A stretch of 59,601 nt of DNA, the filler included, from Nemertoderma westbladi (taxonomy: Eukaryota > Animalia > Xenacoelomorpha), in assembly GCA_032718475.1 (NCBI GenBank). It is 2 parts of 2 records of this genome, joined end to end, with 100 filler letters (N's around TTAATTAATTAA, not from the genome) between each part and the next. Parts side by side here need not be neighbours in the genome. Positions count along the whole stretch, not along the records: positions 1 to 30,574 come from JAUCBJ010005462.1; 1 more part is not named here. One strand, 5' to 3'. Positions 1,439 through 36,604 of the stretch are shown here, piece by piece (within the stretch, counting starts at the first letter, position 1; every line of letters begins with the position of its first letter). The position numbers were made by a program, and so were the translations under genes. Below the pieces are notes generated by a model. The model made no database searches and was not told where the DNA came from. It saw nothing but the letters and a program-made list of their open reading frames with translations.

Positions 1439-2667
1439 TGTAAAAGCTTTTACTGAATTGTCCGGTTATTTTTCCTTATTTTTCCCGTAAAGTACTCTGT
1501 AGTTGGTTTACCAGGCATAAAAAGGCCGTGTCCTTGCTGTACTGGTGTTTTAGCGGACATAAGAGCTATTTCTTCTGTATTTGTACTTTAGAGGACATAA
1601 TCCGTAATTCCGTGACGTAAAAGCACGATACTCTTGAAAACAGTGTCGCTACCATGACGACGGCTAGCAGCTGATATTGCCACGTCGACGTTTCTTTGTT
1701 TCTCTGTTCTCTCGTTGTTCAGGTTGACCAATCAGAGCGTTTGTTATCTCTGTGTTGGAGGTATATACAGAAACTCAGTAGTTCAGTGTTATTGTTTTTG
1801 TCCAGAGCCTAAGAACCGGCTTTGGCACCTCCGTGTTTTAGTTTTTAGTCTTACACTAGTAGGTTTAATTATAAAGGGCATATATCCTTTAACGCACCTA
1901 CCTGACTCATGGAATCACTGCATACTGATGACTGATGTCTGCATACTGCAGTACTGCATACACTGCATACTGTGTAACATTGTGCATACCTTTATATTGT
2001 TATACTGCTATTTACCGTCAGTTCTTCATAATATGGTTGATGAATAATTATATTTGGAATAACGATAAACAACCCCGAAACCCAATGTTCTTGATATACC
2101 GAAGGTAAGAGAGAAGGGTTACAGATAAACGATTGTGACTTATGTTAAAGTGGTTTGAAGTGAATCTAATGTTATTTGATAGACCCTACATGAGCCAGTC
2201 TGTGTTCCTTATATATGTGACTAAAATCAGTGAAGATCGGCAGATTAGTGTGCAGTATTGTGCAGCATTGTGTATGAGTGAGTCTGTTAAAGAAGCATTC
2301 CTAAAGAATGCGCCATATATGTGAATTATAATTAAGCCATATCGTTGTGAGTGGTTTAAGTCATAACTCTGTTTATATAGATAAAGCGCCACGTCCTAAA
2401 GGAACTGTTAATATTCCCGAAGGTGAATAATATTGTCAGAGATTATATAATACTGTCAGTCGAATAATACATTAGGCTTACATAGCAATAAAATTAAACC
2501 GTCGAACCCAATCTCCCGGGAATTTCCAGCGGGTGAATGGTCGCGCACGGATTGGTTTCGACTAGTGTAGTGAATCAAATACTTGTCATAGACTAAAAAC
2601 TGATTTAATATCTAGAAGACATCTTAATTTGGTGGGTTAAACTGCCAAAGGTCTGAAAGCGCGAACA
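1439..2667 (+). mobile_element. 3' LTR of a BEL/Pao-like element related to the one at 40275-52579
   Basis: Starts TGTAAAAGC after CCCATTTTCTGGGAGCGG and ends GCGCGAACA, the same termini and ~1230-bp length as the LTRs at 40275 and 51351. Shares an identical 39-nt block (2377-2415 = 41182-41220). Confidence 0.88.
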
Positions 2668-3301
2668 AACTAGTGGTCCAGATAACACATATCCAGTTTC
2701 GTAAAATTTTATCGTGAAGTCTATGTCCAAATGAGTTATTTTCGTATAAAAACATCTGTTTTCAGCGGTTGTCATGGTAACTGCAAAATTAAACAATGAA
2801 ATTCGGACGCAGAATAACTCATATAGTGGGGGTAGGGGTTGGTCCCAAGACATAACACCTTCTCCTTAGGCTTCAAATTAACATTTTGTAAATTTTAACA
2901 TCTGTCTAGCCCAGTTGCCAAGGCAACTGGATTTTCTATTGAACCTCAGTCGGCTCTGCTATGGACCTTATAGTTGAGTTGAGAAACCCCAAGTATATAT
3001 GTATTATAGTTTTCCTACAAATAGAGTTATAAATATTGACTTGAAATACATAGACTTTTTTCTAAGTCCGTTGCCATGGAAACCAGATTTTTCCTGGATA
3101 TGAGACACAGCCCAAAAGATGCGCCTCGACGAGTAGTATATACATGCAAAATTTCAGGGTACTTTTAAAGGCTAGTTTTTTCTGGAGTCAAAAAAAAACT
3201 AATCTGCTCCATACAAGTAAAATAGCCCACTATGAATAGACAATCTCAGCTAAGGAAAATCTTTCTTAGCGAAAGTAGTTGATTTTCCTTAGCTTCGTGG
3301 A
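2668..3301 (-). mobile_element. Non-autonomous Helitron/Helentron-like (HINE/DINE-1 type) element, copy A, interrupted by the LTR element
   Basis: Matches 4107-4739 and 5510-6143. Begins abruptly at AACTAGTGGTCC directly after the LTR end. Confidence 0.7.
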
Positions 3302-3448
3302 TTCGCAATAACCAATATAGGGATTCGAGCTTACAACGATACAGACCGTTAGGGGCACAGGCGCTGTGGGATAGCCAGCAAGTACAATAGCATGGCTAGT
3401 AAAGTAAGTGCAAGTTATCAATGACCCCAACTCTGACCAGCACATATG

Positions 3449-4739
3449 TACGAGAAAGGCATTTCCTAAAGGAAATGCAACCACGAAGCTAAGGAAAATT
3501 AAACAAACGGCCACACTTTGGTTCGTTGCTTAGCCTCGTTTAGTAGCAATTCTCAATAATTAACTTCTATTCCCATGGAAACTAGAGTTCTCTGGAACTG
3601 TTGCTTTAACCTTTGAAAAAAATTCAGTCCAGATTGTGGTTCAGATAACACATATACTGAGTTTCAGAAAATATTGTAGTTTATGTCCAAATTACCGATT
3701 TTCTATCAAAATGCATCTGTTTGCAGTGGTTGTCATGGAAACTGAAAAATAGAACAATGTAATTCGGATGCAGAATAAGTCATATAGTGGGGGTAGGTGT
3801 TGGTCCCAAGTCATAATACTATTAACTTGTGCTTCAAATTATCATTTTATAAATTTTTACATCTGTTTAGCCTGGTTGCCATGGTATCAGGATTTTTTAA
3901 TTTACCTCAATCTGCTCGGCTATGGTTGAGGTGACGCCTTGGTGACGCCTTATAGTTGAGTTGAGAAACTCCAAGTTTATATATATTGCGGTTTTTCTAC
4001 AAATAGAGTTATGAATATAGACTGGAATGATATAGACTTTATTAATATACAGTTACCAAGGTAACTATATATTTCTGGAATGATTTGAGTTTCACTAAAA
4101 GTTCCAACTAGTGGTCCAGATAACACATTCCCAGTTTCGTAAAATTTTATCGCAAAGTCTATATCCAAATGAGTAATTTTTGTATAAAAACATATGTTTT
4201 CAGCGGTTGTCATGGTAACTGCAAAATTAAACAATGAAATTCGGACGCAGAATAAGTCATATAGTGGGGGTAGGGGTTGGTCCCAAGACATAACACCTTA
4301 ACCTTAGGCTTCAAATTAACATTTTATAAATTTTAACATCTGTTTAGCCCGGTTGCCAAGGTAACTGGATTTTCTATTCAACCTCAATCGGCTCTGCTAT
4401 GGACCTTATAGTTGAGTTGAGAAACCCCATGTTTATATCTATTATAGTTTTCCTAGAAATAGAGTTATAAATATTGACTTGAAATACATAGACTTTTTTC
4501 TAAGTCCGTTGCCATGGAAACCAGATTTTTCCTGGATATGAGACCCAGCCCACACGACGCGCCTTGATGAGTAGTATATACATGCAAAATTTCAGGGTAC
4601 TTTTAAAGGCTAGTTTTTTCACCGGTCAAAAAACACTAAATCTGCTCCATACAAGTAAAATAGCCCACTATGAATAGACCATCTCAGCTAAGGAAAATCT
4701 TTCTTAGCAAAAGTAGTTGATTTTCCTTAGCTTCGTGGA
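3449..4739 (-). mobile_element. HINE/Helitron-like non-autonomous element, copy B (1291 bp)
   Basis: Minus strand: 5' TC, subterminal repeat CCACGAAGCTAAGGAAAAT with a nearby partial inverted copy, two internal ~0.45-kb sub-repeats, 3' inverted subterminal repeat, hairpin GCATTTCCT-TT-AGGAAATGC, then CTTTCTCGT. Confidence 0.72.
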
Positions 4740-4887
4740 CAATAGGATCGAAACGTAACTGGCTGGCCATCCAGTAGCTCCGACCAATCAGTGACGAGCT
4801 ACGACAAATCATCACCTAGACATGTTCTGATTTGAATTTGGGTATTTATGGCGATGTTTCGTCACGTTTGGCACCTTCTTGATATTT

Positions 4888-6143
4888 TACGAGAAAGGCA
4901 TTTCCTAAAGGAAATGCAACCACGAAGCTAAGGAAAATTAAACAAACGGCCACACTTTGGTTCGTTGCTTAGCCTCGTTTAGTAGCAATTGTCAATAATT
5001 AACTTCTATTCCAATGGAAACTAGAGTTCTCTGGAACTGTTGCTTTAACCTTTGAAAAAAATTCAGTACAGATTGTGGTTCAGATAACACATATACTGAG
5101 TTTCAGAAAATATTGTAGTTACCGATTTTCTATCAAAATGCATCTGTTTGCAGTGGTTGTCATGGAAACTGAAAAATAGAACAATGTAATTCGGATGCAG
5201 AATAAGTCATATAGTGGGGGTAGGGGTTAGTCCCAAGTCATAATACTATTAACTTGTGCTTCAAATTATCATTTTATAAATTTAAACATCTGTTTAGACT
5301 TGTTGCTATGGTAACTGGATTTTCTAATTAACCTCAAACGGCTTGGATATGGATCTTATAGATGAGTTGCAAAACCCCAAGTTTATATATATTACAGTTT
5401 TGCTACAAATAGAGTTATCAATATAGACTTGAATGATATAGAGTTCAATAAACTACAGTTACCATGGTAACTAAATTTCTGGAATAATTTAAGTTTCACT
5501 AAAAGTTCCAACTAGTGGTCCAGATAACACATACCCAGTTTTGTAAAATTTTATCGCGAAGTCTATGTCCAAATGAATAATTTTTGTATAAAAACATCTG
5601 TTTTCAGCGGTTGTCATGGTAACTGAAAAATGGAACAATGTAATTCGGATGCAGAATAAGTTATATAGTGGGGGTGGGGGTTGGTCCCAAGTCATAACAC
5701 CTTGCCCTTAGGCCTCAAATTAACATTTTATAAGTTTTAACATCTGTTTATCCCGGTTGCCAAGGTAACTGGATTTTCTATTTAACCTCAATTGGCTTTG
5801 CTATGGACCTTATAGTTGAGTTGAGAAACCCCAAGTTTATATCTATTATAGTTTTCCTACAAATAGAGTTATAAATATTGACTTGAAATACATAGACTTT
5901 TTTCTAAGTCCGTTGCCATGGAAACCAGATTTTTCCTGGATATTAGACCCGGCCCAAAAGATGCGCCTCATCGAGTAGTATATACATGCAAATTTTCAGG
6001 GTACTTTTAAAGGCTAGTTTTTTCCGGAATCAAAAAAAAACTAATCTGCCCCATACAAGTAAAATAGCCCACTATGAATAGACCATCTCAGCTAAGGAAA
6101 ATCTTTCTTAGCGAAAGTAGTTGATTTTCCTTAGCTTCGTGGA
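4888..6143 (-). mobile_element. HINE/Helitron-like non-autonomous element, copy C (1256 bp)
   Basis: Same termini and architecture as copy B, with scattered substitutions and small indels. Confidence 0.72.
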
Positions 6144-6346
6144 CCCTCTTTCAGCTTCCGTTGTTTTCAACACTTTCGGCGGCACCTTTATACAGTTCCA
6201 GTTCCACTTAAACCTTCAAGGTTTATATATAACGTGTAATTTTAACGAAAAAATTGCCTTTTCATCTCCCGAATTGACTTTCATTGCGCGTTATAAATCT
6301 GAGTACGGATATACTGTAGGATTCCTCCATAACATGGATTTATTGC

Positions 6347-6672
6347 AATCTCGCAAAATAATTGGCTGAGTGTTTAATCGCGATTCTTTAGAATAATTAA
6401 TTTTTACAAATTGGGTTGCCTCCACACCTAAAAATATATTACTTTTAAAACCAAAATCTCCTGTTAATACCTCTGCCTTTCATTAATCCTCAGTGCCCCT
6501 TTGGATTGGGGTGGTGCAGATTAAGACGGATTGAAGACTAACTTACCCTCTTCTTTGATTTATTGACGGTTTTGTTAATTTTCTGAATTAAAGATTTTGT
6601 GTTAGAAACGTTCAATTGTAATTTATATCCCATTACTGAGCCTCGTGGTGCGCGAAGGCCCCACGAACGTGT
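6347..6672 (+). repeat. Dispersed repeat with a terminal GC-rich hairpin (second copy at ~54024-54440)
   Basis: Both places share TCTCGCAAAAT..GGCTGAGT, GCCTCCAC.CCTAAAA..TATTACTTTTAAAAC and ACTGAGCCTCGTG.TGCGCGAAGGCCCCACGA.CGTGT. Confidence 0.65.
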
Positions 6673-9619: not shown

Positions 9620-11360
9620 ATTCTAAGGACCGATTGTGGGAATATGTGTCGGAGTTTAAAAAATAATGCGATATTTCCAGAGAGTTTTTTGGATACATGA
9701 AGGGAAGGGTTTTCCAGAATACATAGTTTGTCATCAATTAGGATGCCAAGCGTTTAATGGGTTTTTTATAAAATTTAATTTCAGGATTATTGGTTGGGTT
9801 GCTCTGGTGGGGAAGGGTGTTTGAGAAAATGACATACTCCGTTTTGTCGTAATTAAGATATAGTTTATTACAGGACAGCCAGTGGCCGACTTTAGTGAGT
9901 TCTGAGGAACGTTTCATCTATGAGACAATTTAGAGAGTCGGAGTGGTTGGCTAAACTGGTGTCATCTGCGATTAGTACGGAATATAGTTTGGTAGATGAG
10001 GGAAAATCATTGATGTAAATTAGAAAGAATAGGACGCCCAGGCCAGGGAGAGAGAGACCCTTGGGGAACCCCACAGAGTATAGGCTCAAGGAGAGACCCT
10101 TGGGGAACCCCACAGAGTATAGGCTCAAGGAGAGACCCTTGGGGAACCCCACAGAGTATAGGCTCAAGGAGAGACCCCTGGGGAACCCCAAAGAGTATAG
10201 ACTCAAGGAGAGACCCTTGGGGAACCCCACAGAGTATAGACTCAAGGAGAGACCCTTGGGGAACCCCACAGAGTATAGGCTCAAAGAGAGACCCTTGGGG
10301 AACCCCACAGAGTATAGGCTCAAGGAGAGACACTTGGGGAACCCCACAGAGTATAGGCTCAAGGAGAGACCCTTGGGGAACCCCACAGAGTATAGGCTCA
10401 AGGAGAGACCCTTGGGGAACCCCACAGAGTATAGGCTCAAAGAGAGACCCTTGGGAACCCCACAGAGTATAGGCTCAAGGAGAGACACTTGGGGAACCCC
10501 ACAGAGTATAGGCTCAAGGAGAGACCCTTGGGGAACCCCACAGAGTATAGACTCAAGGAGAGACCCTTGGGGTACCCCACAGAGTATAGGCTCAAGGAGA
10601 GATCCTTGGGGAACCCCACAGAGTATAGGCTCAAGGAGAGACCCTTGGGGAACCCCACAGAGTATAGGCTCAAGGAGAGACCCTTGGGGAACCCCACAGA
10701 GTATAGGCTCAAGGAGAGACCCTTGGGGAACCCCACAGAGTATAGACTCAAGGAGAGACCCTTGGGGAACCCCACAGAGTATAGGCTCAAGGAGAGACCC
10801 TTGGGGAACCCCACAGAGTATAGGCTCAATGAGGACCCCGTGGGGAACCCCACAGAGTATAGGCTCAAGGAGAGACCCTTGGGGAACCCCACAGAGTATA
10901 GGCTCAAGGAGAGACCCTTGGGGAACCCCACAGAGTATAGGCTCAAGGAGAGACCCTTGGGGAACCCCACAGAGTATAGGCTCAAGGAGAGACCCTTGGG
11001 GAACCCCACAGAGTATAGGCTCAACGAGAGACCCTTGGGGAACCCCACAGAGTATGGGCTCAAGGAAAGACCCTTGGGGAACCCCACAGAGTATAGGCTC
11101 AAGGAGAGACCCTTGGGGAACCCCACAGAGTATAGGCTCAAGGAGAGACCCTTGGGGAACCCCACTGAGTATAGGCTCAAGCATTGATTTTGCTGTACCT
11201 GGGCTGACGATTTGGAAGCGGTTGGAGAGATAATTCTTGATCAGATTTAGAGGTGGACCTCGATCCAATCGAATCGAATTCCATAGCACTTTAGTTTCTT
11301 TAACAAAATTTTGTAAGATTTCAAAATTTTGAAGGCCTTACAAAGGTCAAGGTATACAAC
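9620..11360 (-). mobile_element. CR1/L2-type LINE RT fragment containing a minisatellite expansion
   Basis: YLDLCKAF, IKNYLSNRFQIV, GVPQGS, FLIYINDF, ADDT motifs; degenerate. Confidence 0.85.
10052..11180. repeat. 39-bp minisatellite, ~29 copies (encodes EPILCGVPQGSLL on the minus strand)
   Basis: Unit TTGGGGAACCCCACAGAGTATAGGCTCAAGGAGAGACCC; one 1-bp deletion near 10452. Confidence 0.97.
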
Positions 11361-12507: not shown

Positions 12508-13302
12508 CACCATGTCCCAGAATAGTGTCGTAATTCAGTGACACGCCCCCCCCCCCCTAATTTTTTTACAAATCGCAATGAGATTGCATGAAATTTGAAA
12601 CAGAGATAGTTTCACCTCCCGACCACTGACTGGGTAAGCCAGAATTTTTATTTTTGCTTTGAATCTTTAGCTACAAGCGTTTAAATATGTAACACAATTT
12701 GAATTTCGTTGAAAAATAGCTGAGATATGAGCGTTCAAATGTTGCATGGTTTTGCAACGACGCGAAGCTATTTTATTGTATTTAATAAATAAACAATATT
12801 CTGGAACATTTTTTAAATGTATGAATAGCTAGGTAATAGTAAGATTAAAGATGTAATGCATTGTTGCCCAGCTACGTATTTGGATGAACAAAATATTCCA
12901 GATTATGATGCATTTATTAAATAGAATAAAATAGCCTCGCGCAGATGCATAACCATGCAAAATTTGAACTCCCATATCTCAGCTATTTTCCAACGAAATT
13001 CAAATTGCGTTACATATTTGAAATCCTTGCAGGGCCAGCTTTCCATTGGTACCAACAAACAGCTATAAGGTAGAAGAATAACTGCGGTGTAACTGGTGTA
13101 ATATCGTTGGAGACACTTTGTTTAAACGCTTGTAGCTAAAGATTGAAAGCAAAAATAAAAATTCTGGCTCACCCAGTCAGTGGTCGGGAGGTGAAACTAT
13201 CTGTTTCAAATTTCATGCAATCTCATTACGATTTGTAGAAAAATTAGGGGGGGGGGGGAGGGGGTGTCACTGAATTACGACACTATATTCTGGGACATGG
13301 TG
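12508..13302. mobile_element. MITE with long TIRs and TA target duplication (Tc1/mariner-type)
   Basis: TA|CACCATGTCCCAGAAT...ATTCTGGGACATGGTG|TA. ~175-bp TIRs plus a second internal inverted pair. A related TIR occurs at 55225. Confidence 0.88.
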
Positions 13303-13686
13303 TATTCTAGTATGACATAGGTTGATAGGCCTACAGTTACAGTTGAATCTCCTACATACATTGTATCATCGATGTCAGATTAAATTAAAGAATCACGATG
13401 TTCTATGTGAAACCAAAGTGCAGTCGCTGCAGCCTGCTGGGAACGACACAAACGATTATCAACGATCTGTTTCCTATTGAGTTCAAGTTAAAGATACTAA
13501 ATATATAATAACTAATAATGGTAAAGTAACATAATATTAAGAACAATGAGCTGAATTATATTATTCTTACTATAAAACAATAAAGTCTTAATTTATTTAT
13601 AAATTAAGATGGAAAGATGGAAAATACTGCTGTACTGAATAATTGTTAGTCTTAAACTGTCAGACTATGTAAACTCTTAAAATTTT

Positions 13687-18170: not shown

Positions 18171-19398
18171 GGCTGATAGACAGGTTTCGCCCCAGAGATG
18201 CGGTGGACTTTCAGAAGCTAAACTGATGTTTAGGATGCACGAGTTTCAAATGGAGAAGTATCAGGCATTATCGAAATAGGAGGTGGTGGAGCCACTATCT
18301 CAGTTAGCTACCGTGTTTTGGGCTCGTCATGATGTGGTTGTGTGCAGTGCAGTGATGCGCTGCTGTTCACTGGCATTCTTGGTCGCCCCATCCTGGTGCT
18401 GTCTAACGCGTTCTATTGGCTGGTTTTTCCAACATATTTCCCTTGCAAGACGGACCAGAGATGAATAAACAAAGTTAGAAGCAAGTCCAGGACTGGGTGA
18501 ATTAAAGGTGAGAACGATTGTGACGCAGTTTCGATCTTATAAAGACATGCCGAACTGGCGGTGTGCAGCAAGACTTGAGAATGAGGAATTCGAACTTACA
18601 GATAATCTGTCTGTGACTATCAGCATCAGGGTCAACCGTGTCAATGACATCGATGGGTTTGACCGCCGGTGGCACCTCTGTGTCAATAACACTGTTTGTC
18701 ATTGAGTTAGTTAACTACGCCACTACCTCCTAGTTTATTAGTGCCCGTTTCTTCTCCATTTGGAATTTATCACCTGACACCTTAAATAGCACTTAGCTTC
18801 TATATAATATATATAAAGCCCCCCTCTGAGACGAGACCTACTGGACAGCTGACCCCCATCAGATTATCACTAATTGCATCAACTAATCTGGTCACAGTTG
18901 TTCTTTAGTTTGCTTTTTAACAACTTAGAATTGCTTGCCAGTAGGTGCAATTTGCCTAACAAACATCACCTATTTCAGAAGGAAGTGTTTTTCGAAAACG
19001 AGAAAAAGTCTTCAAACATTTCACTCGTAAGTGCCACAACAACTATTTACAAAATTATTCAAATTGGCCTAAATTTATAATCTTGTTACAGCTGTTAATT
19101 TACTTCCGGCGATCCCAAAGATTGTAAAGGCAACTTCCGGTTCTGCAGATTTAGTCGCTACTAACGAACATTCGTCGACCCACCGCCGCCATTCAACGCA
19201 GGTCCGTGAACGCATCCCGACAAACGAACAGTTAACCACTTTCGAGGATTTACTAAACCAAAAGTACGAGGTCATGTCTCCACTCAATATCTACACAAAA
19301 AGTCTCATATGGTTACATTCAACAGCCATGAAAGGTTCCTCCAATGAAAACGAAGAAACTCGATATCTAAGAATTTATAAGCCTCAGCAAAGGCAATT

Positions 19399-20465
19399 AG
19401 AAGTTCGGAGTAGTTGGGGTAGGAACGTGTACAGTAAAACTCACCAGTATTAGTTGGAGTTGTAGAAGTTCGGTGTAGTTGGGGTAGGAACGTGTACAGT
19501 AAAACTCACCAGTATTAGTTGGAGATGTAGAAGTTCGGAGTAGTTGGGGTAGGAACGTCTACAGTAAAACTCACCAGTATTAGTTGGAGTTGTAGAAGTT
19601 CGGTGTAGTTGGGGTAGGAACGTGTACAGTAAAACTCACCAGTATTAGTTGGAGATGTAGAAGTTCGGTGTAGTTGGGGTAGGAACGTGTACAGTAAAAC
19701 TCACCAGTATTAGTTGGAGATGTAGAAGTTCGGTGTAGTTGGGGTAGGAACGTGTACAGTAAAACTCACCAGTATTAGTTGGAGTTGTAGAAGTTCGGAG
19801 TAGTTGGGGTAGGAACGTGTACAGTAAAACTCACCAGTATTAGTTGGAGATGTAGAAGTTCGGTGTAGTTGGGGTAGGAACGTGTACAGTAAAACTCACC
19901 AGTATTAGTTGGAGTTGTAGAAGTTCGGTGTAGTTGGGGTAGGAACGTGTGCAGTAAAACTCACCAGTATTAGTTGGAGTTGTAGAAGTTCGGTGTAGTT
20001 GGGGTAGGAACGTGTACAGTAAAACTCACCAGTATTAGTTGGAGTTGTAGAAGTTCGGTGTAGTTGGGGTAGGAACGTGTACAGTAAAACTCACCAGTAT
20101 TAGTTGGAGTTGTAGAAGTTCGGTGTAGTTGGGGTAGGAACGTGTACAGTAAAACTCACCAGTATTAGTTGGAGTTGTAGAAGTTCGGTGTAGTTGGGGT
20201 AGGAACGTGTACAGTAAAACTCACCAGTATTAGTTGGAGTTGTAGAAGTTCGGAGTAGTTGGGGTAGGAACGTGTACAGTAAAACTCACCAGTATTAGTT
20301 GGAGATGTAGAAGTTCGGAGTAGTTGGGGTAGGAACGTGTACAGTAAAACTCACCAGTATTAGTTGGAGTTGTAGAAGTTCGGAGTAGTTGGGGTAGGAA
20401 CGTGTACAGTAAAACTCACCAGTATTAGTTGGAGTTGTAGAAGTTCGGAGTAGTTGGGGTAGGAA
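19399..20465. repeat. 65-bp satellite, left block (~16 copies)
   Basis: Unit GTAGAAGTTCGGAGTAGTTGGGGTAGGAACGTGTACAGTAAAACTCACCAGTATTAGTTGGAGTT. Confidence 0.97.
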
Positions 20466-22267
20466 CAGGCCCGTATCGTGCGGGGGGGCTTTGGGGGCAC
20501 TGCCCCCCCAGAGAAGTCCCACTGCCCCCCCAGACATGTATTGTTCACTCGTCTTGTTCACAGTTAATTAATAATAATATTGTTGGTAATCAATATTATT
20601 GGATTCACCTACTCCTGCCCACTGACCTGACCTGACTCCCCACCATTCCATTTGGTCCAATTCCTATAATACTACACGACATTAATATACCTACCTACCG
20701 TAATAATTTCTAAAAATACATACAATAATTCATGCAAGTGTAATCTTGAAAGCAAAATAAGCAAAATCTAAGCAGATGCCCTTGATCACTTTACACCAGC
20801 CTAGAGGCGGGCTTGAAAACTGCAGTCGATTTAAACCTTGTGCTCTCTTTGAGGTCATTTTTGACCCATCGAAGATTTAAACTTACACAATTTTATCACA
20901 CATTGATATTTTATCTCGAAATTTTGTGACATTTATTATTTTACAGTACTTCTCAATTAGAAAAACAAAGATGTAAAAATTTGCAAGGGGGTCTATTCAA
21001 TTTTACAATTTATAGGGGCCTACACATCGTGTTTTGTACCTGTACCATTCAATATCAACAAAAAACTTTTTTGATTTCAACTCAGTTCTCAAATCAGATG
21101 TCATCAAATGGGCCCAAACTTAGAAAGATACCAAAATTTTGATTTGGGGAGGACAGTAAATATTCCAACAGGCACATGGCCAGTTCCTGCCCTTGGCACA
21201 AGTGAGTCATATTCCCAATTTTGTGATGATCCACTTCTAGTATTCCTACTGCATTGATATTATGCTCATTTAGAACCGCAATGACCGATTAAGTTGTTGT
21301 AGACACCTTCAAAACAAGCATAAAGCGAATAGTTTTTGAGATATTTGTCAGGTATTTGTCAATATCGCATCAAGGCGCTAATTTTGACTTGTGCCGGACT
21401 TAACATTATCTGCAATATCTCAAAAACTATTCGCTCTATGCTTGTTTGGAAGGTGTCTAAATCTGTCATTGCGGTTCTATTGATCATAAATATCAATGCA
21501 GTAGGAACAATAGAAGTTGATCATCACAAAAATGGGGAATATGACTCACTTGCACTAAGGGCGGGTACTGGCCATGTGCCTGTGGGAATATTTCCTGTCA
21601 TCCCCAAATCAAAATTTTGGTATCTATCGAAGTTTGGGCTCATTTGATGACATCTGATGTGCAAACTCAGTTTAAATTCGACAAAAAAATTTTTGGACCA
21701 CCCCAACCCTCTCATTTACCTGAGGTCAAAATTGAACTCAAAGGAATCATCTGTTTGAGAAACGAAGGGGTACAAAAGGGTTAAGACCACAGAAAAAGTT
21801 TAAATGACACAGCTAATGGTCGAGTACAATTCTGCCAAGTTTCAGGTTAAACGGATTGAAAGCAAATAAATGGGAGGACATTTAATGTTTAGACATGTAG
21901 CCATCTAGCGGGAAACTGTTGAACTGTTGGGGTCAAAAGTCGCTAAATAATGTCAAGTTTTGGACATATTTATGCCTACAAATTTTTAATTCGACAGCTT
22001 TAAATAAATTCTGCCTTATATGAATGTCAAATTAGTTACGTCAACAACTATTTGCCATTATTGACAATCTCCTTAACAGTGTCAATTCGCCAAGGTTCTG
22101 CCAACTTCGTGGCTCGCCCCACACACCTTTCAACAAAATATTGATTTTACTTTATGTACTAAATTAACTCTCACTTTGTTGTATGCTCCCCAAATCCCAG
22201 TTATGGGTTTTGCCCCCCCAGATTTGGCCTCTGCCCCCCCAGATATTATGATCACCATACGGGCCTG
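20466..22267. mobile_element. Non-autonomous hAT-type DNA transposon inserted in the satellite
   Basis: TIR CAGGCCCGTAT...ATACGGGCCTG; exact 8-bp TSD GGTAGGAA (20458-20465 and 22268-22275); subterminal GCCCCCCCAGA motifs. Confidence 0.92.
20835..21780. mobile_element. TTAA-flanked (piggyBac-type) MITE nested in the hAT element
   Basis: TTAA|ACCTTGTGC...TACAAAAGGG|TTAA; internal ~250-bp inverted arms (~21095-21350 vs ~21415-21660). Confidence 0.7.
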
Positions 22268-25200
22268 GGTAGGAACGTGTACAGTAAAACTCACCAGTAT
22301 TAGTTGGAGTTGTAGAAGTTCGGAGTAGTTGGGGTAGGAACGTCTACAGTAAAACTCACCAGTATTAGTTGGAGATGTAGAAGTTCGGTGTAGTTGGGGT
22401 AGGAACGTGTACAGTAAAACTCACCAGTATTAGTTGGAGTTGTAGAAGTTCGGAGTAGTTGGGGTAGGAACGTCTACAGTAAAACTCACCAGTATTAGTT
22501 GGAGTTGTAGAAGTTCGGAGTAGTTGGGGTAGGAACGTGTACAGTAAAACTCACCAGTATTAGTTGGAGTTGTAGAAGTTCGGAGTAGTTGGGGTAGGAA
22601 CGTCTACAGTAAAACTCACCAGTATTAGTTGGAGTTGTAGAAGTTCGGAGTAGTTGGGGTAGGAACGTGTACAGTAAAACTCACCAGTATTAGTTGGAGT
22701 TGTAAAAGTTCGGAGTAGTTGGGGTAGGAACGTCTACAGTAAAACTCACCAGTATTAGTTGGAGTTGTAGAAGTTCGGAGTAGTTGGGGTAGGAACGTGT
22801 ACAGTAAAACTCACCAGTATTAGTTGGAGTTGTAGAAGTTCGGTGTAGTTGGGGTAGGAACGTGTACAGTAAAACTCACCAGTATTAGTTGGAGTTGTAG
22901 AAGTTCGGAGTAGTTGGGGTAGGAACGTGTACAGTAAAACTCACCAGTATTAGTTGGAGTTGTAGAAGTTCGGAGTAGTTGGGGTAGGAACGTCTACAGT
23001 AAAACTCACCAGTATTAGTTGGAGTTGTAGAAGTTCGGAGTAGTTGGGGTAGGAACGTGTACAGTAAAACTCACCAGTATTAGTTGGAGTTGTAGAAGTT
23101 CGGAGTAGTTGGGGTAGGAACGTCTACAGTAAAACTCACGAGTATTAGTTGGAGTTGTAGAAGTTCGGAGTAGTTGGGGTAGGAACGTCTACAGTAAAAC
23201 TCACCAGTATTAGTTGGAGATGTAGAAGTTCGGAGTAGTTGGGGTAGGAACGTGTACTGTAAAACTCACCAGTATTAGTTGGAGTTGTAGAAGTTCGGAG
23301 TAGTTGGGGTAGGAACGTGTACAGTAAAACTCACCAGTATTAGTTGGAGTTGTAGAAGTTCGGAGTAGTTGGGGTAGGAACGTGTGCAGTAAAACTCACC
23401 AGTATTAGTTGGAGTTATAGAAGTTCGGAGTAGTTGGGGTAGGAACGTGTACAGTAAAACTCACCAGTATTAGTTGGAGATGTAGAAGTTCGGAGTAGTT
23501 GGGGTAGGAACGTGTACAGTAAAACTCACCAGTATTAGTTGGAGTTGTAGAAGTTGGGGTAGGAACGTGTGCAGTAAAACTCACCAGTATTAGTTGGAGT
23601 TGTAGAAGTTGGGGTAGGAACGTGTGCAGTAAAACTCACCAGTATTAGTTGGAGTTGTAGAAGTTCGGAGTAGTTGGGGTAGGAACGTGTACAGTAAAAC
23701 TCACCAGTATTAGTTGGAGTTGTAGAAGTTGGGGTAGGAACGTGTGCAGTAAAACTCACCAGTATTAGTTGGAGTTGTAGAAGTTGGGGTAGGAACGTGT
23801 GCAGTAAAACTCACCAGTATTAGTTGGAGTTGTAGAAGTTCGGTGTAGTTGGGGTAGGAACGTGTACAGTAAAACTCACCAGTATTAGTTGGAGATGTAG
23901 AAGTTCGGAGTAGTTGGGGTAGGAACGTCTACAGTAAAACTCACCAGTATTAGTTGGAGTTGTAGAAGTTGGGGTAGGAACGTGTACAGTAAAACTCACC
24001 AGTATTAGTTGGAGTTGTAGAAGTTCGGAGTAGTTGGGGTAGGAACGTGTACAGTAAAACTCACCAGTATTAGTTGGAGTTGTAGAAGTTCGGAGTAGTT
24101 GGGGTAGGAACGTGTACAGTAAAACTCACCAGTATTAGTTGGAGTTGTAGAAGTTCGGAGTAGTTGGGGTAGGAACGTCTACAGTAAAACTCACCAGTAT
24201 TAGTTGGAGTTGTAGAAGTTGGGGTAGGAACGTGTACAGTAAAACTCACCAGTATTAGTTGGAGTTGTAGAAGTTCGGAGTAGTTGGGGTAGGAACGTGT
24301 ACAGTAAAACTCACCAGTATTAGTTGGAGTTGTAGAAGTTCGGAGTAGTTGGGGTAGGAACGTGTACAGTAAAACTCACCAGTATTAGTTGGAGTTGTAG
24401 AAGTTCGGAGTAGTTGGGGTAGGAACGTGTACAGTAAAACTCACCAGTATTAGTTGGAGTTGTAGAAGTTCGGAGTAGTTGGGGTAGGAACGTGTACAGT
24501 AAAACTCACCAGTATTAGTTGGAGTTGTAGAAGTTGGGGTAGGAACGTGTACAGTAAAACTCACCAGTATTAGTTGGAGTTGTAGAAGTTCGGTGTAGTT
24601 GGGGTAGGAACGTGTACAGTAAAACTCACCAGTATTAGTTGGAGTTGTAGAAGTTCGGAGTAGTTGGGGTAGGAACGTCTACAGTAAAACTCACCAGTAT
24701 TAGTTGGAGTTGTAGAAGTTCGGTGTAGTTGGGGTAGGAACGTCTACAGTAAAACTCACCAGTATTAGTTGGAGTTGTAGAAGTTCGGTGTAGTTGGGGT
24801 AGGAACGTGTACAGTAAAACTCACCAGTATTAGTTGGAGTTGTAGAAGTTCGGAGTAGTTGGGGTAGGAACGTGTACAGTAAAACTCACCAGTATTAGTT
24901 GGAGTTGTAGAAGTTGGGGTAGGAACGTGTACAGTAAAACTCACCAGTATTAGTTGGAGTTGTAGAAGTTCGGAGTAGTTGGGGTAGGAACGTGTACAGT
25001 AAAACTCACCAGTATTAGTTGGAGTTGTAGAAGTTCGGAGTAGTTGGGGTAGGAACGTGTACAGTAAAACTCACCAGTATTAGTTGGAGTTGTAGAAGTT
25101 CGGAGTAGTTGGGGTAGGAACGTGTACAGTAAAACTCACCAGTATTAGTTGGAGATGTAGAAGTTTGGAGTAGTTGGGGTAGGAACGTGTACAGTAAAAC

Positions 25201-28200
25201 TCACCAGTATTAGTTGGAGTTGTAGAAGTTCGGAGTAGTTGGGGTAGGAACGTGTACAGTAAAACTCACCAGTATTAGTTGGAGTTGTAGAAGTTCGGAG
25301 TAGTTGGGGTAGGAACGTGTACAGTAAAACTCACCAGTATTAGTTGGAGATGTAGAAGTTCGGAGTAGTTGGGGTAGGAACGTGTACAGTAAAACTCACC
25401 AGTATTAGTTGGAGTTGTAGAAGTTCGGAGTAGTTGGGGTAGGAACGTGTACAGTAAAACTCACCAGTATTAGTTGGAGATGTAGAAGTTCGGTGTAGTT
25501 GGGGTAGGAACGTGTACAGTAAAACTCACCAGTATTAGTTGGAGTTGTAGAAGTTCGGAGTAGTTGGGGTAGGAACGTGTACAGTAAAACTCACCAGTAT
25601 TAGTTGGAGTTGTAGAAGTTCGGTGTAGTTGGGGTAGGAACGTCTACAGTAAAACTCACCAGTATTAGTTGGAGTTGTAGAAGTTCGGAGTAGTTGGGGT
25701 AGGAACGTGTACAGTAAAACTCACCAGTATTAGTTGGAGTTGTAGAAGTTCGGTGTAGTTGGGGTAGGAACGTCTACAGTAAAACTCACCAGTATTAGTT
25801 GGAGTTGTAGAAGTTCGGAGTAGTTGGGGTAGGAACGTGTACAGTAAAACTCACCAGTATTAGTTGGAGTTGTAGAAGTTCGGAGTAGTTGGGGTAGGAA
25901 CGTCTACAGTAAAACTCACCAGTATTAGTTGGAGTTGTAGAAGTTCGGTGTAGTTGGGGTAGGAACGTGTACAGTAAAACTCACCAGTATTAGTTGGAGA
26001 TGTAGAAGTTCGGAGTAGTTGGGGTAGGAACGTCTACAGTAAAACTCACCAGTATTAGTTGGAGTTGTAGAAGTTGGGGTAGGAACGTGTACAGTAAAAC
26101 TCACCAGTATTAGTTGGAGTTGTAGAAGTTCGGAGTAGTTGGGGTAGGAACGTCTACAGTAAAACTCACCAGTATTAGTTGGAGTTGTAGAAGTTCGGAG
26201 TAGTTGGGGTAGGAACGTGTACAGTAAAACTCACCAGTATTAGTTGGAGTTGTAGAAGTTCGGAGTAGTTGGGGTAGGAACGTCTACAGTAAAACTCACC
26301 AGTATTAGTTGGAGTTGTAGAAGTTCGGAGTAGTTGGGGTAGGAACGTGTACAGTAAAACTCACCAGTATTAGTTGGAGATGTATAAGTTCGGAGTAGTT
26401 GTAGGAACGTGTACAGTAAAACTCACCAGTATTAGTTGGAGTTGTAGAAGTTCGGAGTAGTTGGGGTAGGAACGTCTACAGTAAAACTCACCAGTATTAG
26501 TTGGAGTTGTAGAAGTTCGGAGTAGTTGGGGTAGGAACGTCTACAGTAAAACTCACCAGTATTAGTTGGAGTTGTAGAAGTTCGGAGTAGTTGGGGTAGG
26601 AACGTGTACAGTAAAACTCACCAGTATTAGTTGGAGATGTAGAAGTTCGGAGTAGTTGTAGGAACGTGTACAGTAAAACTCACCAGTATTAGTTGGAGTT
26701 GTAGAAGTTCGGAGTAGTTGGGGTAGGAACGTCTACAGTAAAACTCACCAGTATTAGTTGGAGTTGTAGAAGTGCGGAGTAGTTGGGGTAGGAACGTGTA
26801 CAGTAAAACTCACCAGTATTAGTTGGAGTTGTAGAAGTTCGGAGTAGTTGGGGTAGGAACGTGTACAGTAAAACTCACCAGTATTAGTTGGAGATGTAGA
26901 AGTTCGGTGTAGTTGGGGTAGGAACGTCTACAGTAAAACTCACCAGTATTAGTTGGAGTTGTAGAAGTTCGGAGTAGTTGGGGTAGGAACGTCTACAGTA
27001 AAACTCACCAGTATTAGTTGGAGATGTAGAAGTTCGGAGTAGTTGGGGTAGGAACGTGTACAGTAAAACTCACCAGTATTAGTTGGAGATGTAGAAGTTC
27101 GGAGTAGTTGGGGTAGGAACGTGTACAGTAAAACTCACCAGTATTAGTTGGAGTTGTAGAAGTACGGAGTAGTTGTAGGAACGTGTACAGTAAAACTCAC
27201 CAGTATTAGTTGGAGTTGTAGAAGTGCGGAGTAGTTGGGGTAGGAACGTGTACAGTAAAACTCACCAGTATTAGTTGGAGATGTAGAAGTTCGGTGTAGT
27301 TGGGGTAGGAACGTGTACAGTAAAACTCACCAGTATTAGTTGGAGTTGTAGAAGTTCGGAGTAGTTGTAGGAACGTGTACAGTAAAACTCACCAGTATTA
27401 GTTGGAGATGTAGAAGTTCGGTGTAGTTGGGGTAGGAACGTGTACAGTAAAACTCACCAGTATTAGTTGGAGTTGTAGAAGTTCGGAGTAGTTGGGGTAG
27501 GAACGTGTACAGTAAAACTCACCAGTATTAGTTGGAGTTGTAGAAGTGCGGAGTAGTTGGGGTAGGAACGTGTACAGTAAAACTCACCAGTATTAGTTGG
27601 AGTTGTAGAAGTTCGGAGTAGTTGGGGTAGGAACGTGTACAGTAAAACTCACCAGTATTAGTTGGAGTTGTAGAAGTGCGGAGTAGTTGGGGTAGGAACG
27701 TGTACAGTAAAACTCACCAGTATTAGTTGGAGTTGTAGAAGTACGGAGTAGTTGGGGTAGGAACGTGTACAGTAAAACTCACCAGTATTAGTTGGAGTTG
27801 TAGAAGTTCGGAGTAGTTGGGGTAGGAACGTCTACAGTAAAACTCACCAGTATTAGTTGGAGTTGTAGAAGTTCGGAGTAGTTGGGGTAGGAACGTGTAC
27901 AGTAAAACTCACCAGTATTAGTTGGAGTTGTAGAAGTTCGGAGTAGTTGGGGTAGGAACGTGTACAGTAAAACTCACCAGTATTAGTTGGAGTTGTAGAA
28001 GTTCGGAGTAGTTGGGGTAGGAACGTCTACAGTAAAACTCACCAGTATTAGTTGGAGATGTAGAAGTTCGGTGTAGTTGGGGTAGGAACGTGTACAGTAA
28101 AACTCACCAGTATTAGTTGGAGTTGTAGAAGTTCGGTGTAGTTGGAGTAGGAACGTGTACAGTAAAACTCACCAGTATTAGTTGGAGTTGTAGAAGTGCG

Positions 28201-28251
28201 GAGTAGTTGGGGTAGGAACGTGTACAGTAAAACTCACCAGTATTAGTTGGA
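22268..28251. repeat. 65-bp satellite, right block (~90+ copies, with 55- and 62-bp deletion variants)
   Basis: Same unit as 19399-20465; a few recurring variant positions. Confidence 0.97.
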
Positions 28252-30574: not shown

Positions 30575-30674
30575 NNNNNNNNNNNNNNNNNNNNNNNNNN
30601 NNNNNNNNNNNNNNNNNNTTAATTAATTAANNNNNNNNNNNNNNNNNNNNNNNNNNNNNNNNNNNNNNNNNNNN
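30575..30674. other. Artificial contig-joining linker (44 N + TTAATTAATTAA + 44 N)
   Basis: 100-bp gap with a palindromic all-frame stop linker in its centre. Confidence 0.93.
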
Positions 30675-32405: not shown

Positions 32406-35400
32406 GGTCAGGTCAGGTATTCTAGGTCATTGGTCAAGAAAACTTGCCACCTACATGCAGCATAAAGGAGGTGCCACCTGTAGCTGCATAGACCCTCTTA
32501 CTAGGGCAAATCTGGTCCTGTAACTAGGACCCCCTTCGTTCTGGGATAAGGACGCCGTTGGTCCTGGATTAAGAACCCATATACTTGGCTGCAGGGGTAT
32601 ATGGCCGGGCCAGGCAGATGGTGATCTACCAATGGCTGGTCAGGAGTAGAGTGTTCTCATGTACACTCTGAGAGCATTTCATTGCGACATGCACTTGGCA
32701 GCAGGGGTACAGGGCATGACCCAGCAGATGAGCTGCACAGCCAATGGTGGGTCATGTGCGCCAGAGTAGATATGGGTGATGAGCCTCATATCTGACTCCA
32801 CATCGACACCCACCCTGTGGAATAGCAAACCAGGGTGTGGTATTTGCCCCGAGAGCTGACTCGGCAAAAAAGCACCCCCAACCCCCACCATGTTCCACCC
32901 CGACCAATGAAGCCATTGGTGTATCTGAGGCAAGTCACTAGACTAGCCTCAGTAAACACCCTAACACTCGGGTCCCCAATTCGACAAGGTGAGCTGACTG
33001 CCTTGGCAGATAAGCTTTCTCTTATCACAGTGGGTGTTCAAGAGCACCGAATGCAGACTGGACAGACTGATGAGGTTCTGATTAAGGACAAGGGGGGCGG
33101 TTGGTGACTCACCCTCGCGTCAGCAGATGATAGTGGCAATGGTGGAATTGGTCTATTGATGAATCCAACTGCACATGCAGCATTGGACAAAATAGACCAA
33201 ATCTCTAACCGCATCATCCGTTGCCACTTCTCATGTTCTGGAAGACTGGCTAAGAAGTTTCCTAAGGTGGCTCTGATTGTGTGCTACTCTCCAACTACTG
33301 TTGCCCCTGTAGAGGATGTGGAACATTTCTACCACAATCTACAAGCAGCTACTGATGGAGTGGATCAGCATGCATTCTTAACATTCTTGGGGGACTTTAA
33401 TGCAGGTCTGCATCAATCACCTACATCGCCCTGGGTCTATAGCAATAGTGTTAACCGAAATTCCGTCCATCTTCAGGATTTTATCTCTGTAAATGGATTA
33501 TTTTCGGCTGGAACCCATTTCAAGAAGCGAACTGGAAAGCTGTGGACTCATAGTCCACCCAGTGGTCACAAGTCCCACATAGACCATATTCTGTTTCGTA
33601 GGAAATACAGGAGCTATATAAAAGACTGTAATGCATTTACACTTCGACCCTTCTCCAGTGATCACCACCTTATTGTGGCCAAGGTAAGACTTAGTCTGCA
33701 TGCTAGCAGAACAACGAAATCTGCATTGCCGCGGCATGACTGGTCCTTTCTGTTGCAACAACCAAGTGTGAGATCCAGCTTCACACTACAGCTGAGCAAC
33801 AGGTATGAGGTTCTTGCCTCTGAGGTGGCAGATCACTGAGGGCTATACTGCCTTCACAGAAGCAGTTAAGTTGGCAGCTGCAGAAACAGTTCCTGTATAC
33901 CCTCGCAACAGGAAAATGGCCCCCTGGACTGACAACAAAATTCAGAAGTGCCGAAATGACCTCTATAAGGAGCAGAAAGAATCCCGACTCAAACAGACTA
34001 CAGCGGCCAATAATGCAGTTAAGGCTGCATCTAGGTCCCTGAACAGGCAGTAATCTGTTAATTTACAGGAGCTAATAAACCAACAGGTTGATGCCATCAA
34101 TGATGCTGACGACAGCAGGCAATCATCCCAGGCATGGAAATCGAACTCACGGTTTGGTGCCAGTTCCCAAGAAGGGCAACCTAACACTCTATGGTTCTTT
34201 TCGGGGAATCTCATTGATCTCGATTGCTGCAAAGCTATACAACGGAATTCTTTTAAATCGCATCAGGGATCCCATTGAGAGACTGCTCCGTGGAAATCAG
34301 AATGGGTTCCGTAAAGGTCGTGGGACCATGGAGCCCATTTTGGCACTTAGAAGGATAATTGAAGAGTTATCCAAAAAGAAAGACAGGTATCTGGCTGTTA
34401 TCTTTGTTGACTTCTTCAAGGCCTTTGAATCAGTCTCTCGCTCACATATGTTCAGCATACTTTCATTATATGGGATTCCTGGTGAAATTATTGCAGCAAT
34501 CAGACCAGTATACGATGGTTCGACAACATTTGTGTCTACTGTTGATGGTGACACAGAACCATTTGAAGTGTTATGGGGCGTCCTCCAGGGAGACACACTT
34601 GCACCATTGTTGTTCATAATTGTGGTTGACTATGTTCTACACATGTCCTTAGATCATCATAATGATGATGGGGTGATGATAACTAACTGACAAACAAATA
34701 CCTAACTAACTAACTAACAAATACCTAACTGATCTAGACTTTGCTGATGACTTAGGAGTACTCTCAGAATCACCAGAGGGAGGCCAACGGCTCCTCGGCT
34801 CATTAGAACATGCTGCTTCTATTGTTGGTCTTTTTATTAACTCCAGAAAGACCAAAATTTTGACAGTTAACTTTGAAAGTCCTCAGCAAGTCTCTGCTCG
34901 GATGGGCATGACTTCTGTTACCTGGGATCATGGATCCGGCAGTCAGGTGAGGACCTTCGAATACGTAAGGGAAAGGCATGGGCAGCCTTGAATAGGCTTT
35001 CCAGAATTTGGAAGTCACCAAGAATTAATCGGAAACTTAAGGTCCGATTATTTAGAGCAGCATTAGTTCCAGTACTCCTCTATGGGAGTCCATGCTGGGC
35101 TCTAACTGCTGAGGACACCAAATCTCTGGATGGTACATTCACAAGAATGCTACGCCGTGTTCATTGTGTCAAGTACAATGCACACATCTCCAACCAGACA
35201 CTGTATAACATTGGAGGTGTCTCATTGGTTCCCCCAAGCTTAACACTAGAACAAAATCACCTCCGCTTTGCAGAACATTGCTTTCGCCGTGAGGACCAGC
35301 CAGTGCATAATCTTGTACTTTGGCAGCGTCATAGAGTGAATAAGCATGGTGGACAGCCCATGACTTTCTTGAGACGCATCTTAAAGGACACTGGTCTTGA

Positions 35401-35527
35401 AGATGCGGATGATCTAGCAAATGTCATTGGTGATAGGGAGTTGTGGCGGTGCAATTTTGTCGACAAGCTGGCACAGCATTCTTAAAAATGCAGCTGCAAT
35501 GCAGCATGCCGATCCTAGTAGTAGTAG
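32406..35527 (+). mobile_element. RTE-clade LINE, near full length with 5' UTR, internally deleted and degenerate
   Basis: ASVNTLTL, GVQEHR, CYSPT, LGDFNA, IDHIL, SDH (APE); PVPKKGNL, QNGFRKGR, FVDFFKAF, GVLQGDTLAPLLF, LDFADD (RT); (GTA)n tail. Confidence 0.9.
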
Positions 35528-36303
35528 TTTCTATATCACTTTGCAGTTGTTTAAAGTCAGTTGCAGGTGATCGACTGCATACATCTTAATATTGGTTTTG
35601 GGGAAACACTTTGTACTGTAGATCATAAGTATTATTAATTAAGTCTGGAAATATTGCACTGAATGAATATTAACGGACTACTTCTTATAAATATGAACCT
35701 TATCCTTGGGGTATTGTAAAGTTGACTTTCATCTTTAAAAAAAATTCTGCCACCACCATGCAATCCACAATTGGGTTGCTGTGATGCAGCATGGTTGGAT
35801 ATGTGCATTTTTGTACTTGACACAATGAACCCGGTGTAGCATTCTTGTATAAGTGCCATCCAAAGATTTGGCGTCGTCAGCTGTTGGAGCCCATCATGGA
35901 CTCCCATATGGGAACTAGGACTAGTATTTCTAAGTCATCATCAAACTCTAGATCAGTGTTTGGCCGGATTTAATTGGCTTATCTGTAAAGTGATAATTGA
36001 ATGGGTGAATAGTTCCGCTGCTCTTTTAAGGAGCAGTGAACGATAATTAAATTGCACCAATAATAATGTCACTAACATCATTTGATGATAGCCTATAGCG
36101 TGTTGCAACCGTGAAACAAATTAATATTGTCGAGATATTTTTGGGAAATCTGGGCGCTCTCTAAACAGGTGTAAGTTATAATTTGGTTTGGTAAATGAAT
36201 AGTCTCAGTAGCGCTCCTGTATGGGTTATATTCTTCTAAAAAAATTCATTAATGCCATTATGTTCACAAAAAGGCCCCAACATGGAAGTTTAAAAAATGT
36301 TAA

Positions 36304-36604
36304 ACGAACGGATGAAGTGGTAGGCATTCACCAGCGGCAGCATAGTGTAAAGATGATAAAAAAATAAAGTATTGAGGGTCTTTAGCTGGTTATATTATAT
36401 TAGATAAAGATACAATAGTAAACGTTTTCGACCTACCGGTCTGCATCAGACTATGTACTGGCAACTAACAGGAAAAGGTGGGGTCTATACATAGTACATA
36501 GTCTGATGCAGACCGGTAGGTCGAAAACGTTTACTATTGTATCTTTATCTAATATAATATAACCAGCTAAAGACCCTCAATACTTTATTTTTTTATCATC
36601 TTTA
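36304..36604. mobile_element. Penelope-like inverted terminal fragment with a hammerhead-ribozyme-like core
   Basis: Perfect 112-bp inverted arms (36348-36459 and 36493-36604) containing CTGATGCA-GACC-GGTA-GGTC-GAAA-ACG; flanked by the 13-bp direct repeat TAAAAAATGTTAA. Confidence 0.7.

What the first reader, a model, noticed from the sequence alone, without database searches (positions are those of the whole stretch)
2668..6143. Repeat-spacer array: ~1.3-kb Helitron-like repeats separated by unrelated spacers of 147 and 148 bp
Seen: three same-orientation HINE-like copies with identical junctions (..CTTCGTGGA | spacer | TACGAGAAAGG..). Spacer 1 (3302-3448, 147 bp) and spacer 2 (4740-4887, 148 bp) are unrelated in sequence yet almost the same length. 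Each is bracketed by the inverted subterminal repeats ATTTTCCTTAGCTTCGTGG and CCACGAAGCTAAGGAAAAT. Simple tandem duplication would copy the spacer, and random insertion would not fix its length. Established: 147 bp is nucleosome-core DNA length; Helitrons can capture flanking DNA. Inference: either ruler-like serial insertion one nucleosome from the previous copy, or fixed-length DNA capture into a growing array (CRISPR-like layout, but not CRISPR). Only two spacers are visible, so coincidence cannot be excluded.
Basis: partly seen in the sequence, partly recalled or inferred. Interest (0 to 1): 0.8.

Follow-up and report, generated by a model that had tools for sequence, protein, structure and literature searches.

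The report
Clustered rolling-circle transposon copies, chance spacing
Three copies of a very common 1.3-kb non-coding repeat, likely a rolling-circle (Helentron-type) transposon, sit 149 and 150 bases apart, but the end of one 'spacer' and the start of the next match two halves of one other repeat that the middle copy interrupts, so this is likely an ordinary insertion cluster and not a CRISPR-like array, with the equal gaps probably chance.

Summary
In detail: three same-strand copies (93-94% identical) with unrelated gaps. The repeat has the anatomy of a non-autonomous Helentron (HINE/HLE2) and is very abundant in public runs. The capture reading fails. In two studies' contigs, the DNA that normally precedes spacer 2 matches the end of spacer 1 (19/30 and 22/30, best of 119,144 window positions). 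So copy 2 split one pre-existing repeat at a TA without target duplication, and the true gaps are 149 and 150, not 147/148. Other head-to-tail pairs of this family have ten different printed gaps of 0-39 nt, and copies also nest inside each other. Clustering and self-insertion of Helitrons are published. Open: the tool listed no gap over 40 nt and probably under-detects long gaps, so a nucleosome-phased peak near 150 is not excluded (about 0.2); two gaps within 1 nt have only a 0.3-3% chance under simple models. Spacer 2/right-flank contiguity and the autonomous partner are untested; no genome was held. The scan had no look-alike of this junction.

The parts
2668..3301 (-). Copy 1: 634-nt remnant (5' part on the minus strand) of the HINE-like element, interrupted by an LTR element
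3302..3450 (.). Gap 1 (149 nt including the target TA at 3449-3450); its last 30 nt match the DNA that precedes gap 2 in other copies of a second repeat family
3451..4739 (-). Copy 2: full element, 1289 nt (boundary can shift by one base: 3450-4738)
3459..3478 (-). Terminal 20-nt palindrome/hairpin, 8 nt from the 3' end (minus strand); same in copy 3 at 4898-4917
   Evidence: z -3.77
3481..3499 (-). 3' subterminal inverted repeat (19 nt); copy 3 at 4920-4938
3628..4541 (.). Two diverged central repeats of about 470 nt (3628-4083 and 4103-4541, 76% identical)
4686..4699 (-). 14-nt inverted repeat (IR) complementary to the 5' subterminal repeat (4719-4732)
   Evidence: z -4.36
4720..4738 (-). 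5' subterminal inverted repeat (19 nt); copy 1 at 3282-3300, copy 3 at 6124-6142
4740..4889 (.). Gap 2 (150 nt including the target TA at 4888-4889); 4740 to about 4821 is a diverged piece of a second, unclassified repeat family
4890..6143 (-). Copy 3: full element, 1254 nt
1439..2667 (+). 3' LTR (TG...CA) of a retroelement inserted into copy 1; the rest of copy 1 is predicted to lie left of the window

Best explanation
The locus holds three same-strand copies of a high-copy, non-coding repeat with Helentron-type ends, which likely inserted one by one, without target duplication, at TA sites of pre-existing DNA, so the 'spacers' are likely leftover target DNA and their near-equal length is probably chance. 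Shown: the anatomy; the contiguity of spacer 1's end with spacer 2's start in a second repeat family; variable short gaps and nested copies elsewhere in the family. Inferred: mobilisation in trans by a RepHel (HUH) transposase by copy-and-paste through a single-stranded/circular intermediate; a preference for landing in or beside existing copies in the same orientation; that copies 1 and 3 also inserted into continuous target DNA; later insertion of an LTR element into copy 1.
For: Anatomy: subTIRs, IR, terminal hairpin, central repeats, no ORF of 120 aa or more in 2668-6143, as described for HINEs (PMC4067079, PMC7492417 passages). Empty site: consensus loose ends before 4740 in X3 (8 contigs) and X5 (2 contigs) match 3421-3450 at 19/30 and 22/30, each the single best of 119,144 window positions, only in the register that leaves exactly two target bases (neighbouring registers 6-12/30), and 4-5/30 against the element end that actually precedes 4740. 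Abundance: summed word depth about 200,000 (X2) and 175,000 (X3) at both ends against 20-40 for many low-depth contigs (no true copy number). Variable gaps: 15 printed head-to-tail rows give 10 different gaps, 0-39 nt. Nesting: 5 of the 15 joint rows shown (of 93) join the element end to the inside of another copy, same strand. All 11 joint rows are same-strand head-to-tail. Precedent: Helitrons next to one another and HINE clusters (PMC4067079 section 15); FoHeli1/2 insert between T and A, and a FoHeli4 lies 2 bp from another (PMC5148889 passages).
Against: Two gaps within 1 nt of each other have only a 0.3-3% chance in five simple clustering models, and 4e-5 to 5e-4 if both must also fall at 140-155. 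Only about 0.5-1% of end depth is in listed head-to-tail joints, so triples should be uncommon. No gap over 40 nt was listed at all, so the sample says nothing about a peak near 150. Contiguity of gap 2 with the flank after 6143 was not seen; the continuation of the second repeat past 4811 matches the window only weakly (p 0.03). Helraiser showed no local hopping (PMC4778049 passage), so the cause of clustering is not established. The target is T^A (or ^TA), not the T^T typical of HLE2 (PMC11417382). No autonomous partner could be linked.
Confidence: 0.7

Rival explanations
1. Nucleosome-phased serial insertion: the element inserts beside an existing copy but is excluded from a nucleosome positioned against that copy's end, so sites fall in the first linker (0-40 nt) or just beyond one core (about 150 nt). 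The gaps are target DNA, but their length is set by chromatin.
For: Gaps of 149 and 150 are close to the 147-bp core (established knowledge) and improbable under smooth models. Contiguity of the gaps is what serial insertion predicts. Printed short gaps all lie at 0-39 nt, which a linker-only rule would also give. The gaps are richer in G+C (46%, 43%) than the element (35%).
Against: n = 2 gaps. None of the 5 listed nested sites is within 10 nt of 150 or 300 from either end (118, 254, 311, 733, 869 from the hairpin end). Three of three end-bearing X5 records with over 200 nt of flank list no second copy (records 20, 21, 24; weak, as most copies are solitary and X5 holds far less of the element). 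No Helitron precedent among the 3 papers listed or the 20 listed (listings only).
Confidence: 0.2
2. Fixed-length capture: the element adds about 147-nt pieces of unrelated DNA between new repeats, in a CRISPR-like growing array.
For: Near-equal lengths and unrelated spacer sequences.
Against: Spacer 1's end and spacer 2's start are adjacent parts of one other repeat. Family gaps vary from 0 to 39 nt. The array stops at three copies, each 6% diverged. No match of either spacer to 50,697 phage records (of little weight for an animal).
Confidence: 0.03
3. The block was assembled elsewhere or by read-through (3' transduction or composite transposition) and moved as one unit, or arose by tandem duplication with later replacement of the spacer.
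For: Several short-gap junctions have multi-copy depth (for example 113 for one 20-nt gap, 740 for an exact head-to-tail junction in X2), so dimers with their gap can be amplified. End bypass is published for Helitrons. The middle of spacer 1 has no cover in 4 of 4 runs (not evidence of absence).
Against: Duplication would copy the spacer; the copies are equally and substantially diverged. Transduction would not explain copy 2 sitting inside a continuous second repeat; it only moves the question to the donor locus.
Confidence: 0.07

Closest known systems
HINEs / DINE-1 (non-autonomous Helentrons, HLE2 group); PMC4067079 (passages, sections 11 and 15), oyster Cg_HINE PMC7492417 (passages)
   Same: 5' subTIR at the very end with a complementary IR, central repeats, 3' subTIR followed by a palindrome, no coding capacity, no target duplication, high copy number, clusters.
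   Different: subTIR is 19 nt (11-15 in those papers); no microsatellite found; target is T^A or ^TA rather than T^T; central repeats are long (about 470 nt) and only two.
Fusarium FoHeli1/FoHeli2 (Helitron2 group); PMC5148889 (passages)
   Same: Asymmetric terminal inverted repeats, hairpins at both ends, insertion between T and A with the same one-base boundary ambiguity, self-insertion, a copy 2 bp from another (FoHeli4), joined-end junctions.
   Different: Those are autonomous fungal elements ending in ATTTT; here no transposase is linked and the 3' end reads CTCG (a minority variant CTAG).
Canonical Helitrons (HLE1; Helraiser); PMC4778049, PMC11417382 (passages)
   Same: Under one boundary choice the element starts with TC and ends 8 nt after a hairpin; exact head-to-tail junctions occur; T usually flanks the 5' side as in A^T targets.
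   Different: HLE1 has no terminal inverted repeats and ends in CTRR; Helraiser showed no local hopping.
CRISPR repeat-spacer arrays (recalled, no call)
   Same: Layout only: repeat, unrelated spacer, repeat.
   Different: Repeats are 1.3-kb transposon copies; spacers are contiguous target DNA; lengths are not fixed in the family.

Membership tests
HINE / non-autonomous HLE2 | Short subterminal inverted repeats, the 5' one at the end and the 3' one tens of nt inside | tested here: met
   19-nt repeats at 4720-4738 (1 nt from the end) and 3481-3499 (30 nt inside); longer than the 11-18 nt used by HELIANO
HINE / non-autonomous HLE2 | Palindrome/stem-loop between the 3' subTIR and the end | tested here: met
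   3459-3478, z -3.77
HINE / non-autonomous HLE2 | IR complementary to the 5' subTIR (DINE-1 type) | tested here: met
   14 bp, 4686-4699 with 4719-4732, z -4.36
HINE / non-autonomous HLE2 | No target-site duplication | tested here: met
   Empty-site register for copy 2 leaves exactly two target bases; one site only; a 1-nt duplication cannot be told from a boundary shift
HINE / non-autonomous HLE2 | Insertion between T and T | tested here: not met
   T^A or ^TA at copies 2 and 3 and at 3 of 5 nested sites; T^A is published for FoHeli1/2 of the same group, so this is a variant, not an exclusion
HINE / non-autonomous HLE2 | Microsatellite behind the 5' module (DINE-1, Cg_HINE; optional in mite HINEs) | tested here: not met
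   No TRF row in 2668-6143 at score 50
HINE / non-autonomous HLE2 | Shares termini with an autonomous RepHel element of the HLE2 clade | not testable with these tools
Canonical Helitron (HLE1) | 5'-TC and 3'-CTRR, no terminal inverted repeats | tested here: not met
   3' end CTCG in copies 2 and 3; inverted repeats present
Replitron | Short direct terminal repeats | tested here: not met
   Self-comparison of copy 2 shows inverted, not direct, terminal repeats; features from PMC10288648 passages
Spacer-acquiring array (CRISPR-like) | Successive spacers come from unrelated sources | tested here: not met
   Spacer 1 end and spacer 2 start are contiguous in a second repeat family
Spacer-acquiring array (CRISPR-like) | Fixed spacer length across the family | tested here: not met
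   Ten different printed gaps, 0-39 nt; gaps over 40 nt not sampled
Nucleosome-phased insertion | Genome-wide peak of inter-copy distance near one nucleosome | not testable with these tools
   No assembly; read laying listed no gap over 40 nt

The most novel reading that the evidence does not exclude
A Helentron-type element that homes to its own copies and steps exactly one nucleosome core along the chromosome before inserting again, always in the same orientation: the first rolling-circle eukaryotic transposon whose insertion sites are measured by chromatin, leaving a readable germline nucleosome ruler at thousands of loci.
Probability: 0.2. Interest if true: 0.6.

Novelty: new member of a known kind. 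Interest (0 to 1): 0.22.

Why it matters
As best explained it is an ordinary, if tidy, cluster of a high-copy HINE-like family with a T^A target; useful only as a family annotation and as another case of self-adjacent Helitron insertion. If a genome-wide peak near 150 nt exists, it would tie HUH-transposase target choice to nucleosome position, which I did not find described (listings only), and it could be tested at once on an assembly.

Tried and rejected
No whole genome is held, so the distance histogram could not be made. The 19-nt subTIR gave 1 match in metagenome contigs (a bacterial-looking coding contig without the rest of the element, taken as chance), 0 in genome contigs, 0 in viral contigs. 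Spacers: no significant match elsewhere in the window, none in phages, no unusual fold (z -0.33, -1.10), no long open frame alone or together. No Rfam match in 2600-6600 at E up to 1. No RNA holder listed; X4 (RNA only by guess) gave one record; expression and small RNAs untested. The middle of spacer 1 (3346-3403) has no cover in 4 of 4 runs; not used as evidence. No loose end behind 4888 that would test gap 2/right-flank contiguity was among the 20 rows shown of 82. Earlier findings by sequence and by nearby place: nothing. Rejected: simple tandem duplication (spacers unrelated), spacers as diverged parts of the element (no match to it), a MITE made of spacer plus flanking inverted repeats (the repeats belong to the neighbouring copies), 'local hopping' as an established cause (negative for Helraiser).

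Full report
Observation. Self-comparison of the window shows three same-strand copies at 2668-3301, 3449-4739 and 4888-6143 and no further copy in the 59.6 kb. Aligned columns are 94.2, 93.7 and 93.4% identical; the outer 100 nt of copies 2 and 3 are identical and the differences come in blocks in the middle. The two spacers, and each against the 148 nt after 6143, are unrelated on either strand: 0 of 12 comparisons beat 300 shuffles, lowest p 0.06. Copy 1 is cut at 2667/2668 by an LTR ending in CA (1439-2667); a related, complete element at 40275-52579 has a 5-nt target duplication, so the rest of copy 1 is predicted left of the window.

Anatomy. Read on the minus strand, each full copy has a 19-nt subterminal repeat 1 nt from the 5' end, a 14-nt complementary IR 19 nt further in (fold z -4.36), two central repeats of about 470 nt (76% identical), the inverted subterminal repeat 30 nt from the 3' end and a 20-nt palindrome 8 nt from that end (z -3.77). 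No frame of 120 aa or more lies in 2668-6143 and no Rfam family matches. This is the layout given for DINE-1/HINEs (PMC4067079, passages and sections 11, 15) and oyster Cg_HINEs (PMC7492417, passages). The inverted repeats that seem to bracket the spacers are the ends of neighbouring copies.

Outside evidence. No genome is held, and pattern scans of three public collections gave one chance match. Seven coded runs were listed, five holding part of the stretch. I laid four on 3230-4960 and four on 4706-4919; X1 and X2 are one sample, X3, X5 and X4 are other studies. All are contigs, and the tool warns that summed depth is not copy number; still, about 200,000 (X2) and 175,000 (X3) at both ends against 20-40 for many single contigs points to thousands of copies (inference). 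X5 holds far less of the element (about 1,500).

The empty-site test. The first 80 nt of spacer 2 are themselves repeated (summed depth up to 4,800 in X2; many records start at 4739-4740 with other DNA in front). The consensus of what precedes 4740 in 8 contigs of X3 and 2 of X5 matches window 3421-3450, the end of spacer 1 plus TA, at 19/30 and 22/30. Each is the single best of 119,144 positions on both strands of the window (means near 7); the neighbouring registers give 6-12/30; the element end that really precedes 4740 gives 4-5/30. So the end of spacer 1 and the start of spacer 2 are two halves of a diverged copy of a second repeat, and copy 2 lies inside it. The register leaves exactly two target bases, T and A: no duplication, and true gaps of 149 and 150 nt. 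The boundary can be drawn as T^A or ^TA; FoHeli1/2 have the same target and the same ambiguity (PMC5148889, passages). Limits: only 30 nt of spacer 1 could be compared; the family's continuation past 4811 fits the window weakly (p 0.03); nothing shown tests gap 2 against the flank after 6143 (20 of 82 loose-end rows shown).

Gaps elsewhere in the family. One search lists 11 joint rows (17 contigs in X2, 11 in X3, none in X5 or X4), all same-strand head-to-tail. I tallied only rows whose in-between letters were printed: 11 of the 12 printed (of 15; one 'go-back' row left out) and 4 (12 printed of 61; internal rows and one duplicate left out). They give ten different gaps: 0, 6, 7, 8, 17, 20, 21, 22, 24, 39 nt, some seen in two runs. 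Rows marked 'between: not known' were left out. Of the 15 joint rows shown (of 93), 5 join the element end to the inside of another copy; 3 of the 5 fit T^A in the window's copy, one is off by a base and one does not fit the window's copy. A fixed spacer length is therefore not a property of the family. But no gap over 40 nt was listed in either call; contigs at a high-copy end keep only 22-30 element letters, so long gaps are probably under-detected, and these data cannot exclude a second peak near 150. Listed head-to-tail joints make up about 1.0% (X2) and 0.5% (X3) of end depth.

How it most likely works. Shown: anatomy, abundance, the interrupted target at copy 2, variable gaps, nesting. 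Inferred from HLE biology: a RepHel transposase in trans recognises the subTIRs and hairpin, peels off a strand or circle and pastes it at a TA without duplication (PMC4778049, PMC11417382, passages). [quoted passage not shown] Against a simple cause: Helraiser showed no clustering around donor sites. An earlier scan note reports an HLE2-like transposase elsewhere in this genome (e1-10614266); it is a lead for the partner, unchecked.

The equal gaps. Simulated chance that two neighbouring gaps differ by at most 1 nt is 0.3-3% in five smooth models, and 4e-5 to 5e-4 if both must also lie at 140-155. That is small, but it rests on two gaps picked by eye from a very large scan, and the corrected values are 149 and 150. 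Nucleosome phasing remains possible: short gaps of 0-39 plus about 150 is also what linker-only insertion would give. Weakly against it: none of 5 nested sites is within 10 nt of 150 or 300 from an end, and three X5 records with long flanks list no second copy. My searches (listings, with passages of eight papers, PMC11934779 and PMC10288648 among them; no supplements read) showed no report of nucleosome-phased Helitron insertion; closed-access papers are not covered. Another scan note describes ruler-like spacing in a giant virus (e1-5693707); an analogy only. I put chance at 0.7 and phasing at 0.2.

Verdict. Real feature, correctly described, but most likely an ordinary cluster of a new HINE-like family with a TA target; the CRISPR-like capture reading is contradicted by the empty-site match. 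Interest 0.22; 0.6 if a genome-wide peak near 150 nt is found.

Noticed in passing
window 40275-52579: LTR retroelement with 1.23-kb LTRs 99.4% identical and a 5-nt target duplication; one 1537-aa ORF with DUF1759 (BEL/Pao-type by recalled association) and no RT hit in it; small 3' ORFs (49965-50381 has no Pfam hit; 50790-51272 is basic, not scanned). A related element (71-91% identical in pieces) fills 1-2667.
   Followed up: partly
window 10052-11181: 39-bp minisatellite, 29 copies, 96% matches, made from a coding motif of a non-LTR reverse transcriptase frame (label recalled) and kept open over long stretches.
   Followed up: no
window 19398-20466 and 22267-28251: Two arrays of one 65-bp unit (16 and 94 copies, 95-98% matches) with strong G/C skew, separated by about 1.8 kb that holds a large inverted-repeat element.
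   Followed up: no
window 12522-13305, 21074-21677, 35076-35913, 36348-36604: MITE-like or fold-back elements with long inverted arms.
   Followed up: no
window 3421-3450 and 4740-4821: Second, unclassified repeat family (summed depth up to about 4,800 in X2) with a GC-rich palindrome and CCAAT-type motif; no Rfam match.
   Followed up: partly
window 3729, 4052, 4206, 4352, 4508: Repeated 14-nt imperfect palindromes in the central repeats that resemble the RFX X-box (label recalled, not tested).
   Followed up: no
runs X2, X3 laid on window 4706-4919: An exact head-to-tail junction carried by a variant end reading CTAG on the minus strand, depth 740 in X2 and 72 in X3: amplified tandem dimer or circle.
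   Followed up: partly
window 30575-30674: Two runs of 44 N around a 12-nt island: assembly gap.
   Followed up: no
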